A stretch of 64,000 nt of DNA, from assembly GCA_016906335.1 (NCBI GenBank), contig JADEYG010000004.1, positions 868,001 through 932,000 on the forward strand. The letters run 5' to 3'. Shown one piece after another: positions 59,232 through 60,872 of this stretch (the stretch's first letter is position 1; the number at the start of each line of letters is the position of its first letter). The position numbers and the translations under genes were made by a program. This DNA comes from Novakomyces olei (Eukaryota). The notes under the pieces are model-generated. The model was given only the letters and a program-made list of their open reading frames with translations, was not told where the DNA came from and did no database searches.

Positions 59232-60377
59232 CTAATCAAACAGGCCAAAGCCCATATCCTCGTCAGACTCCTCCTCTGGCTCAGCCGCCTTGGCCTCTTC
59301 GGCAGCGGGAGCATCAGATGAGGCAGCTGCAGCTGATGGTGCAGCGGCAGCCGCAAACGCGGACGGGTCAGCCAGATACGCTTTCGCCTAGTTTCAACGT
59401 TAGCAAAGGAACAAGATACATGTGGCAAAGACGGCGCCAACCCGCCAAAAGCTCAGTAAAAAATTAGAGTATATTTTGATCTTCACTGTTACAATCCGTA
59501 TTTTCAGTGTATTTAGCATCACAGCCCTGGGTGGCGGCCACAAAGCAGGCGGTAAAAAGAGAAAAATAAAATAGAACGCAAGACTTACCTGCTCAGCATA
59601 TGACACGGTATAATCCGTAACGAGGGAAACGCCAATAGCCTTCTTGAAGTAGTTGATAAAAGTGTGCGGCACAGACACAAGAGTTGGGTAGTCGACGGCA
59701 AGCGAAATGCTGGCGATAGCACGAGAAGCAGCCAAAAAGTGTCCCAAAAGCTCATCCTCAGTGATGTCCAGAACGTCAGGACCGAATACATTGCCGCTAT
59801 CATAAATGGTCTCGACCTTGAGACCATACGTGAAGGGCGAGATGTTAAGCATATTCAGCAGGGTCGCTTCAGAAGCACCGACACGGTTGTCCTTGTGGAC
59901 GAGATGGACATCGCTCACAATTTCAATGGTACCACGGGTAATCTTGGTGGGGACTTGCAGAGCCTGGAAGAAAGAGGTCTTTCCAGGTTCCATACCAGTA
60001 TTACCAGCAGGGATGAATACATCAATGGGAGCAATGGCTCCAGCCTTGGCCGGGGCAGCTACGACATTGCTAATAATTCTGTCACGGATGGACTTGAGAT
60101 CACCGTGAGTGAAAACGAAACCAACGTTTCCACGGACCAACGGTAAAAGGCGCTCCAGCTCCGGGATCTGGCTGATATAGTCCCGAATAGCACGACGGAT
60201 CATTGTGTTTTTACCGAGCAGGACGACGGCTTCACCGCGCAGATCCTTACGGACAGTGTGCATTTGCTGCGAGGAAACATTGTCGACGTTAACAATGAAC
60301 AGCGACGTGAACTCTGAAAAGAGTGCATGAAGCTTGTCAAAGTAAGCCTGTTTCTCGCTCTGCTTTGCGCCTCCCAT
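59232..60377 (-). CDS. RPP0: 60S acidic ribosomal protein P0 (uL10)
   Basis: [26 protein letters not shown] and [13 protein letters not shown]. Intron 59388-59588. Confidence 0.98.
59448..59527 (-). ncRNA. Intronic box C/D snoRNA in the RPP0 intron (double guide)
   Basis: Minus strand: C GTGATGC (59522-16), D' CGGA (59498-95), C' GTGAAGA (59486-80), D CTGA (59456-53), with complementary flanks. Both guides match recalled rRNA segments. Confidence 0.8.
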
Positions 60378-60594
60378 GACTTGATCTTTCGCAAGTAAGG
60401 ACTTTAAAGGCGGTAAAGTTCTGATTGCTGCTCTGTACGGCTCTGTTTGTTGTGTATATGGTTTGCGTGACTGCTCTAGGGTTTACTCCTCATAATAATA
60501 CGATATAATAGTAGTACTTGAAATATTTAGCATTATAACGTAGATTACATTAGGGATGGCAATTATTCAGTACTGAAGTATTGAAGGACCAATT

Positions 60595-60730
60595 ATTATT
60601 ATTATTATTATTATATTTTATTATATTTTATTATATTTTATTTTATTTTATTTTATTTTATTTTATTTTATTTTATTTTATTTTATTTTATTTTATTTTA
60701 TTTTATTTTATTTTATTTTATTTTATTTTT
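60595..60730. repeat. (ATT)n/(TTTTA)n tract in the RPP0/MRPL7 divergent promoter
   Basis: Directly visible. Confidence 0.95.
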
Positions 60731-60872
60731 TGCTTAATATTGTCAATAGAATAATAAAGCCAAATATTCAATACTATACGTATTTCTAAAATTCAGCATT
60801 AAATGCGAAAAATATCAAAATATTTGGTCAACGAGTCAAGACTTTTCTGCTCCAATCGAAGATTAGCAGCTC

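What the first reader, a model, noticed from the sequence alone, without database searches (positions are those of the whole stretch)
59448..59527. Double-guide box C/D snoRNA in the RPP0 intron, with a possibly novel 18S target
Seen: the 201-nt intron reads GGGCT-GTGATGC-taaatACACTGAAAATa-CGGA-ttgtaaca-GTGAAGA-tcaaaatATACTCTAATTTTTTa-CTGA-GCTT. This is a C, D', C', D layout with a terminal stem and GC-rich complementary flanks. From recalled S. cerevisiae rRNA sequence: the D' guide pairs with 25S AUUUUCAGUGU, and the +5 rule selects the third U, equivalent to Um2724 (an snR67 target in S. cerevisiae). The D guide pairs 13-15 nt with 18S AAAAAAUUAGAGUGU and selects the fourth A (about A755), which I do not know as methylated in S. 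cerevisiae. Inference: a reshuffled guide combination and a possibly lineage-specific 2'-O-methylation, co-expressed with a ribosomal protein gene.
Basis: partly seen in the sequence, partly recalled or inferred. Interest (0 to 1): 0.75.

Follow-up and report, generated by a model that had tools for sequence, protein, structure and literature searches.

The report
Known-family snoRNA in RPP0 intron
A genuine-looking small nucleolar guide RNA sits in the intron of a ribosomal-protein gene; it belongs to a fungal family that is already described, but one of its two guide sequences has been replaced by a guide for a different, known ribosomal RNA methylation site.

Summary
An 80-nt box C/D unit (minus strand, 59527..59448) lies in the middle of the 201-nt intron of RPP0.

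It is a divergent member of a described family: Rfam RF01507 Afu_298, which is AM921940 and snoStrip CD_41. A scan for its C' box plus D guide found 117 metagenome loci (64 distinct). Twenty-six distinct ones lie just downstream of, or inside, RPP0, which was not part of the query. A. fumigatus Afu-298 also lies beside RPP0.

The D guide forms 15 bp with 18S and selects the fourth A of the A-run (A755, S. cerevisiae numbering). This target belongs to the whole family, so it is not lineage-specific. It may be the S. pombe site Am768 (snR84), mapped by primer extension, but I could not prove this.

The D' guide is the unusual part. Most relatives carry a guide for 18S A619. Here the guide forms 12 bp with 25S and selects U2724. 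No other homologue has it.

I could not test expression, methylation or the species' own rRNA. Overall this is an ordinary feature with a modest twist.

The parts
59589..60377 (-). RPP0 (uL10/P0) exon 1, 263 codons
   Evidence: ORF and translation. 7,997 of 8,000 scored candidates are homologues with E <= 1e-30 carrying PF00466/PF17777. The best named ones are Saitoella 68%, Taphrina 67% and S. pombe 66%.
59388..59588 (-). 201-nt spliceosomal intron hosting the snoRNA
   Evidence: GTAAGT at the 5' end, GCTAAC 12 nt before the TAG at the 3' end, and exons in frame after removal. Inferred from sequence; no RNA data.
59232..59387 (-). RPP0 exon 2, 51 codons plus TAG stop, acidic P-protein tail
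   Evidence: The translation ends ...[13 protein letters not shown]; the stop is read.
59448..59527 (-). box C/D snoRNA unit, about 80 nt
   Evidence: Box layout. The weak Rfam matches are nearly all box C/D families, best Afu_298 at 22.7 bits. Homologues in RPP0-linked introns.
59516..59522 (-). C box GUGAUGC
   Evidence: Read from the sequence. The last base is C instead of the consensus A.
59500..59511 (-). D' guide, 12 nt pairing with LSU AUUUUCAGUGUG
   Evidence: This is the best duplex found in 6,865 nt of rRNA; the next best is 9 bp. Position +5 falls on L024 sense position 470, which is the U2724 equivalent.
59495..59498 (-). D' box CGGA (degenerate)
   Evidence: It follows the duplex after a one-base spacer and lies 9 nt before the C' box. 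Relatives use CCGA, CAGA, CUGA, CCAA or CUUA at the same place. Inferred.
59480..59486 (-). C' box GUGAAGA
   Evidence: UGAAGA is shared with the Afu_298 consensus. It was part of the scan pattern, so it is shared with all retrieved loci by construction.
59458..59472 (-). D guide, 15 nt pairing with 18S AAAAAAUUAGAGUGU
   Evidence: 14 Watson-Crick pairs + 1 G-U in all six SSU pieces scanned. 0 of 300 shuffles reach this duplex. Position +5 falls on the fourth A, A755.
59453..59456 (-). D box CUGA
   Evidence: Read from the sequence.
59399..59404 (-). branch-point motif GCTAAC
   Evidence: It starts 48 nt after the D box. A comparable RCTRAY motif lies 46-58 nt (once 85 nt) after the D box in 21 of 22 RPP0-linked loci examined.

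Best explanation
This is an intron-encoded box C/D snoRNA, released from the spliced RPP0 intron by exonucleolytic trimming and assembled into a fibrillarin snoRNP. It is a divergent orthologue of the fungal family known as Afu-298 (GenBank AM921940), Rfam RF01507 and snoStrip CD_41. The family's constant features are a UGAAGA C' box, a D guide against the 18S A-run, and a home in an intron in or just after RPP0. Its D guide should direct 2'-O-methylation of the fourth A of the 18S stretch AAAAAAUUAGAG (A755 in S. cerevisiae numbering). Its D' guide carries a guide for 18S A619 in most relatives. Here it has been replaced by a guide for the U2724 equivalent of 25S, a site known to be methylated and known to be served by different snoRNA families in different fungal lineages. 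The following are shown here: the sequence layout, both complementarities and their registers, the shared D half, and the RPP0 linkage. The following are inferred: that a stable RNA is made, that either methylation occurs, and that CGGA acts as the D' box.
For: Layout and intron geometry. Family: the best Rfam match is Afu_298, which shares the C' box and the whole D guide with the same one-base spacer. Afu-298 was cloned three times, gave a 90-nt northern signal and maps 'Intergenic; Afu1g05080/Afu1g05100' (PMC2377427 Table 1). AFUA_1G05080 is ribosomal protein P0 (PMC6529585). The metagenome scan gave 117 loci and 64 distinct sequences. Twenty-six distinct ones have RPP0 on the same strand within 1.5 kb upstream. 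In the main class that is 23 of the 35 with at least 1,200 nt of upstream sequence. RPP0 was not in the query. RF01507 scores above its gathering cut-off in 6 of 12 of these loci tested. A branch-like motif lies about 50 nt after the D box in 21 of 22 RPP0-linked loci, as in the window. Targets: 15-bp and 12-bp duplexes, each one base from the box. Shuffles reach them 0 of 300 and 8 of 300 times. Position +5 falls on A755 and U2724. Guidance of 25S-2724 by snR67, snR51 or snR54 family members in different lineages is stated in PMC5824354 section 27. N. crassa assigns the site to CD49.
Against: Rfam's curated cut-off for RF01507 is not met (22.7 against 40 bits, E 0.38), and the window has no Rfam match at gathering level. 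The scan pattern was derived from the window, so the shared C' box and D guide are by construction; only the RPP0 linkage, the C boxes and the branch spacing are independent. No RNA run was available. The species' own rRNA could not be read. The rRNA pieces used come from other eukaryotes, as contaminant contigs. The D' duplex alone is not rare for this A/U-rich guide (8 of 300 shuffles). CGGA is a degenerate D' box, and a canonical CUGA lies inside the proposed guide. The terminal stem is weak and the flanking complementarity is at chance level. A755 is not in the N. crassa predicted list. The Arabidopsis RiboMeth-seq list shows nothing between A623 and A780.
Confidence: 0.75

Rival explanations
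1. It is a single-guide snoRNA. Only the D guide (18S A755) works. The real D' box is the canonical CUGA inside the supposed guide, leaving 8 nt between C box and D' box, which is too short to guide. The 25S complementarity is then a coincidence or a decayed remnant.
For: A CUGA lies at snoRNA positions 21-24, and the Rfam alignment to Afu_298 places it on that family's D' box. 8 of 300 shuffled guides give a duplex as good somewhere in rRNA. PMC5824354 reports that most fungal box C/D families are single guides (passage).
Against: The 12-bp duplex starts exactly one base from CGGA and puts +5 on a U whose equivalent is a known methylated site. That coincidence is on top of the 8-in-300 chance. 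CGGA lies 9 nt before the C' box, the same spacing as in many relatives whose D' boxes are equally degenerate.
Confidence: 0.18
2. The D guide binds 18S pre-rRNA without methylating it, acting as a folding or processing chaperone. This would explain why A755 is unmethylated in the best-mapped organisms.
For: A755 is absent from the N. crassa predicted list, and no site lies at the equivalent place in the Arabidopsis list. By my recollection it is also absent from the S. cerevisiae and human maps. The duplex is long (13-16 bp across relatives).
Against: The one-base spacer and CUGA/AUGA box give a canonical +5 geometry in the window and in the Afu_298 consensus. In the scan hits the spacer was fixed by the pattern. 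S. cerevisiae lacks the family according to PMC5824354, so absence of the mark there is expected. S. pombe has an 18S Am768 mapped by primer extension that could be this site.
Confidence: 0.05
3. It is a chance arrangement of short box motifs in an intron, and no stable RNA is made.
For: No expression data. Folding is no better than shuffles. There is no Rfam match at gathering level.
Against: The same D half occurs with C boxes in RPP0-linked introns of many fungi, and a family member was cloned and seen on a northern blot.
Confidence: 0.02

Closest known systems
Afu-298 of Aspergillus fumigatus (GenBank AM921940; Rfam RF01507 Afu_298; snoStrip family CD_41 of Canzler et al. 2018)
   Same: Box C/D layout, UGAAGA C' box followed by UCAAAA, identical D guide core ACUCUAAUUUUUU with a one-base spacer, and position next to RPP0.
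   Different: The 5' half does not align. The family consensus and 46 of 64 distinct metagenome relatives carry a UUUU(U)AACC D' guide, whereas the window carries ACACUGAAAAU. The window's unit lies in a coding-region intron. In 22 relatives examined, the RPP0 stop lies about 180-340 nt upstream of the C' box. The Rfam score is below the gathering cut-off.
snR84 of Schizosaccharomyces pombe, guide for 18S Am768 (PMC4138321)
   Same: [quoted passage not shown] S. pombe numbering runs +3 at position 562 and +15 at position 1024 relative to the S. cerevisiae-like numbering. Am768 therefore corresponds to 753-765, where the only A residues are A753-A757, A760 and A762.
   Different: Equivalence is not shown. 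I saw neither the snR84 sequence nor the S. pombe 18S sequence, and the paper's supplementary tables are closed.
snR67 of S. cerevisiae, with Nc CD49 (snR54 family) of N. crassa and snR51-family members of Onygenales: guides for 25S U2724
   Same: Same predicted target nucleotide.
   Different: Functional analogues only. No snR67, snR51 or snR54 family appears among the 8 weak Rfam matches. There the guide is a D guide; here it is a D' guide in another family.
snR47 of S. cerevisiae / U36 of plants and animals: guides for 18S A619 (Arabidopsis A623)
   Same: They serve the site that the D' guide of most relatives of this snoRNA is complementary to.
   Different: The window's snoRNA has lost or never had that guide. 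No UUUUAACC-type guide motif occurs anywhere in the 64-kb window.

Membership tests
box C/D snoRNA (general class) | C box (RUGAUGA) near the 5' end and D box (CUGA) near the 3' end, brought together by a terminal stem | tested here: met
   GUGAUGC and CUGA with a 4-bp GGGC/GCUU stem that has two G-U pairs. The stem is weak, and the longer flank pairing is at chance level.
box C/D snoRNA (general class) | Internal D' and C' boxes | tested here: inconclusive
   The C' box UGAAGA is clear and family-conserved. The D' box is either the degenerate CGGA or the internal CUGA.
box C/D snoRNA (general class) | At least 10 bp of complementarity to rRNA ending next to the D or D' box, with +5 on the modified nucleotide | tested here: met
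   15 bp for the D guide and 12 bp for the D' guide, both one base from the box. This was tested on rRNA of other eukaryotes, not the organism's own.
box C/D snoRNA (general class) | Stable ~70-100-nt RNA bound by fibrillarin/Nop56/Nop58/Snu13 | not testable with these tools
   No RNA run is listed for this organism.
Rfam RF01507 Afu_298 | Covariance-model score at or above the curated gathering cut-off (40 bits) | tested here: not met
   22.7 bits, E 0.38. 6 of 12 metagenome relatives tested pass, with 42.5-67 bits.
Afu-298 / AM921940 / snoStrip CD_41 | D guide against the 18S A-run with +5 on the fourth A | tested here: met
   Identical 13-nt core and spacer in the window and the Rfam consensus; 15-bp duplex.
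Afu-298 / AM921940 / snoStrip CD_41 | Position in an intron within or just downstream of RPP0 | tested here: met
   The window's unit is in the RPP0 intron. A. fumigatus. 26 of 64 distinct relatives are RPP0-linked. Twelve class-A relatives with enough flank are not linked; some lie in introns of other genes.
Afu-298 / AM921940 / snoStrip CD_41 | D' guide UUUU(U)AACC, complementary to 18S GGUUAAAAA (A619) | tested here: not met
   The window has ACACUGAAAAU instead; 46 of 64 distinct relatives have the family guide. Whether the family's authors count this guide as defining is unknown, because Table 1 of PMC5824354 is not held.
snR67 family (snoStrip CD_26) | Sequence homology to snR67, a D' guide to 25S G2619 and a D guide to U2724 | tested here: not met
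   Only the U2724 target is shared. There is no snR67 match among the weak Rfam hits, and the guide sits at D', not D.
S. pombe snR84 | Guide for 18S Am768 | tested here: inconclusive
   Numbering offsets allow Am768 to lie in the same A-run, but no sequence was available.

The most novel reading that the evidence does not exclude
The 18S A755 guide may be an old, widely kept eukaryotic guide that has been lost in the three best-mapped organisms (S. cerevisiae, human, Arabidopsis). It occurs in fungi and in a separate set of 31 metagenome loci not linked to RPP0. In fungi it has stayed tied to the RPP0 transcript, while its D' slot has acted as an exchangeable cassette. The D' slot reads 18S A619 in most relatives, a 5.8S site in L092, and 25S U2724 in this genome. 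The window would then hold a fourth, undescribed host family for the U2724 guide, in a deep-branching ascomycete whose RPP0 is no more than 68% identical to any named species.
Probability: 0.35. Interest if true: 0.5.

Novelty: new member of a known kind. Interest (0 to 1): 0.33.

Why it matters
It gives a clean natural example of guide turnover. One half of a snoRNA and its host gene have been kept across very distant fungi, while the other guide has been exchanged. The exchange involves a site (25S U2724) already known to move between snoRNA families. It also flags 18S A755 as a predicted methylation site that is missing from the standard maps of budding yeast, human and Arabidopsis but is probably common in other fungi. 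For annotation, it shows that RF01507 is too narrow to catch divergent members.

Tried and rejected
- Whole genome: none is held for this window.
- Sequencing runs: no RNA holder is listed.
- Reading the organism's own 25S: I tried laying runs X1-X4 on the LSU fragment L024. The organism's own rRNA therefore remains untested.
- Viral contigs: the 18S motif was not found.
- A family search for LSU in five contaminated assemblies returned a machine error. Pattern searches replaced it. One hit, L023, lies inside a 220-kb bacterial contig and was dropped as chance. Searches gave 2 of 5 and 0 of 5.
- Literature:
  - 'Afu_298' as a term found nothing.
  - The guide and target strings found only unrelated papers.
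  - A search combining RiboMeth-seq with fungal names was badly framed and returned nothing useful.
  - Term look-ups found nothing in PMC8583080, PMC8351944, PMC12309372 and PMC7671301.
  - PMC5824354 Table 1 and its supplements, and the supplements of PMC4138321 and PMC4605285, were not visible. These probably state the CD_41 targets and the S. pombe site list.
- Earlier findings of this scan: nothing for this genome or sequence. A word search gave only unrelated snoRNA notes.
- Read-through protein P0001 (89% identical RPP0): its 30-residue tail ends before any guide could be read, so it says nothing about the D' guide in a relative.
- No snoRNA-like match lies downstream of the RPP0 stop in the window.
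- I considered a covariance model built from the retrieved homologues but did not build it. The homologues were fetched with a pattern taken from the window, so its score would not be independent.
- An alternative complement of the relatives' D' region to an LSU stretch (13 of 64) needs one or two G-U pairs and runs over the putative D' box. I judged it less likely than 18S A619.

Full report
**Observation.** RPP0 lies on the minus strand.
- Exon 1 is 60377..59589, the intron is 59588..59388, and exon 2 is 59387..59232.
- The intron is 201 nt, with GTAAGT at its 5' end and GCTAAC 12 nt before the terminal TAG.
- Removing it restores a P0 protein that ends in the usual acidic tail.
- The quoted 80-nt unit is present exactly as written, at 59527..59448.
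- It sits 61 nt from each splice site, and its D box ends 48 nt before the branch motif.
- The 4-bp terminal stem has two G-U pairs.
- The GC-rich flanks do not pair better than chance: 404 of 1000 shuffles pair at least as well.
- The region as a whole folds like its shuffles (z -0.64).

**Which family.**
- Rfam finds nothing in the window at gathering level.
- A permissive scan of 271 nt gives 8 weak matches, five of them box C/D families spanning the unit. The best is RF01507 Afu_298 at 22.7 bits against a cut-off of 40.
- That alignment shows the same C' box and the same D guide with the same one-base spacer, while the 5' half hardly aligns.
- Afu-298 (AM921940) was cloned three times from A. 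fumigatus, gave a 90-nt northern signal and was listed as an orphan. Its location is given as 'Intergenic; Afu1g05080/Afu1g05100' (PMC2377427, Table 1 passages).
- AFUA_1G05080 is ribosomal protein P0 (PMC6529585, passages).
- Canzler et al. 2018 call the family AM921940 (CD_41). They say it has paralogues in Leotiomycetes and 'no trace' in Saccharomycotina (PMC5824354, passages).
- Their Table 1, which assigns targets to former orphans, is not held in the text I could read.

**Relatives.** One metagenome scan used the C' box, a 5-35-nt gap, the 13-nt D guide core and NNTGA.
These reduce to 64 distinct sequences. Because the pattern came from the window, these shared parts are by construction.
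- Three features are independent of the query: C boxes at the right distance, the RPP0 linkage, and the intron geometry.
- tblastn with the window's exon 1 finds RPP0 on the same strand within 1.5 kb upstream for 26 distinct sequences. In the main class that is 23 of the 35 that have at least 1,200 nt of upstream sequence.
- Twelve class-A sequences with enough flank are not linked to RPP0. Several lie in introns of a patatin/NTE1-like gene or an oxidosqualene-cyclase-like gene.
- In 22 relatives examined, the RPP0 stop lies about 180-340 nt upstream of the C' box (11 of 64 by one motif; 11 of 13 further loci). There the snoRNA intron is downstream of the coding region.
- In the window and in L092 the intron instead interrupts the coding region after codon 263.
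- I hand-picked 22 RPP0-linked loci, leaving out L058, L067, L073, L092, L114 and L128. In 21 of them a branch-like RCTRAY motif lies 46-58 nt (once 85 nt) after the D box. The 22nd has no downstream sequence.
- RF01507 passes its cut-off in 6 of 12 loci tested.

**Targets.** No genome is held for this window, so rRNA came from eukaryotic contaminant contigs in prokaryote assemblies.
- There are 22 contigs with the 18S motif and two with the LSU motif, L024 and L025. All were confirmed as SSU or LSU by Rfam.
- The D guide forms 15 bp (14 Watson-Crick + 1 G-U) with all six SSU pieces scanned.
- The D' guide forms 12 bp (11 + 1 G-U) with L024. The next best duplex is 9 bp.
- Shuffled guides reach these duplexes 0 of 300 times (D) and 8 of 300 times (D').
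- For numbering I used my recalled list of S. cerevisiae methylated sites as a check on base identity. On L024, all 7 sites from G2619 to G2815 carry the right base at one offset. The 7 upstream sites fit an offset 3 nt different. This places +5 of the D' guide on U2724.
- On the yeast-like SSU piece L018, 6 of 7 recalled sites fit offset 580. The two recalled pseudouridine sites 759 and 766 are U. This places +5 of the D guide on A755.

**Is A755 known?**
- It is absent from the N. crassa predicted list (PMC2780460 Table 1).
- The Arabidopsis RiboMeth-seq list shows nothing between A623 and A780 (PMC8053127, one table passage).
- By recollection it is also absent from the S. cerevisiae and human maps.
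- S. pombe has 18S Am768, guided by snR84 and confirmed by primer extension. [quoted passage not shown]
- S. pombe numbering is +3 at position 562 and +15 at position 1024. Am768 therefore maps to 753-765, where five of the seven A residues are in this A-run. This is a good lead, not a proof.

**The D' guide.**
- Of the 64 distinct relatives, 46 carry UUUU(U)AACC followed by a CNNA box.
- For 22 of them the best rRNA complement is 18S GGUUAAAAA(GCU), with +5 on A619.
- A set of 31 loci (5 distinct) not linked to RPP0 carries a different D' guide.
- L092 carries one complementary to 5.8S.
- None carries the window's guide.
- PMC5824354 section 27 states that 25S-2724 is guided by snR67 in Saccharomycotina, by snR51-family members in Onygenales and some Dothideomycetes, and by snR54-family members in Sordariales.
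- The window would add a further host family.
- The rival parse uses the canonical CUGA inside the guide as the D' box. It cannot be excluded.

**Organism.** The best named RPP0 hits are Saitoella (68%), Taphrina (67%) and S. pombe (66%), with Saccharomycotina yeasts at 65-68%. One unnamed protein is 89% identical. The lineage is a poorly sampled ascomycete, and I could not place it further.

**Verdict.** This is a real and well-described feature. It is a divergent member of a known family with an exchanged D' guide. The 18S target belongs to the whole family and is not novel to this lineage. Expression, methylation and the organism's own rRNA remain untested.

Noticed in passing
window 60593-60731: A long AT-rich microsatellite, (ATT)n running into (ATTTT)n of about 140 nt, lies about 220 nt upstream of the RPP0 start codon, in its presumed promoter region.
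   Followed up: no
L037, L050, L066, L068, L101, L129; and L043, L135: Copies of the same snoRNA family (A619-type D' guide plus the A755 D guide) sit in introns of non-ribosomal genes. One group is in a patatin/NTE1-like lipase gene, at one conserved intron position. Another is in an oxidosqualene/lanosterol-cyclase-like gene. Gene names were judged by eye from the translations; no family search was run.
   Followed up: partly
L029, L031, L048, L056, L136 and their duplicates (31 loci): A set of loci not linked to RPP0 carries canonical C, D', C' and D boxes, the same 18S A755 D guide and a different D' guide (ACCUACAUUCU-CUGA). Its organisms and D' target were not identified.
   Followed up: partly
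L092:1290-1400: This is the only retrieved relative with the snoRNA in the same coding-region intron position as the window (after RPP0 codon 263). Its D' guide is complementary to 5.8S GAAGAACGCAG (11 bp including one G-U).
   Followed up: partly
P0001, P0008, P0039, P0048, P0089, P0091: Public protein collections hold RPP0 entries that read through the intron after the equivalent of codon 263. They have tails of 30 to about 150 residues and lack the PF00428 domain. Several tails share a conserved motif (...DRKSLI.MKD...), which suggests a conserved intronic element translated by mistake.
   Followed up: no
L001-L022, L024, L025: Short, low-coverage eukaryotic rRNA contigs are present in 21 public prokaryote assemblies, both isolates and MAGs. 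This is contamination.
   Followed up: no
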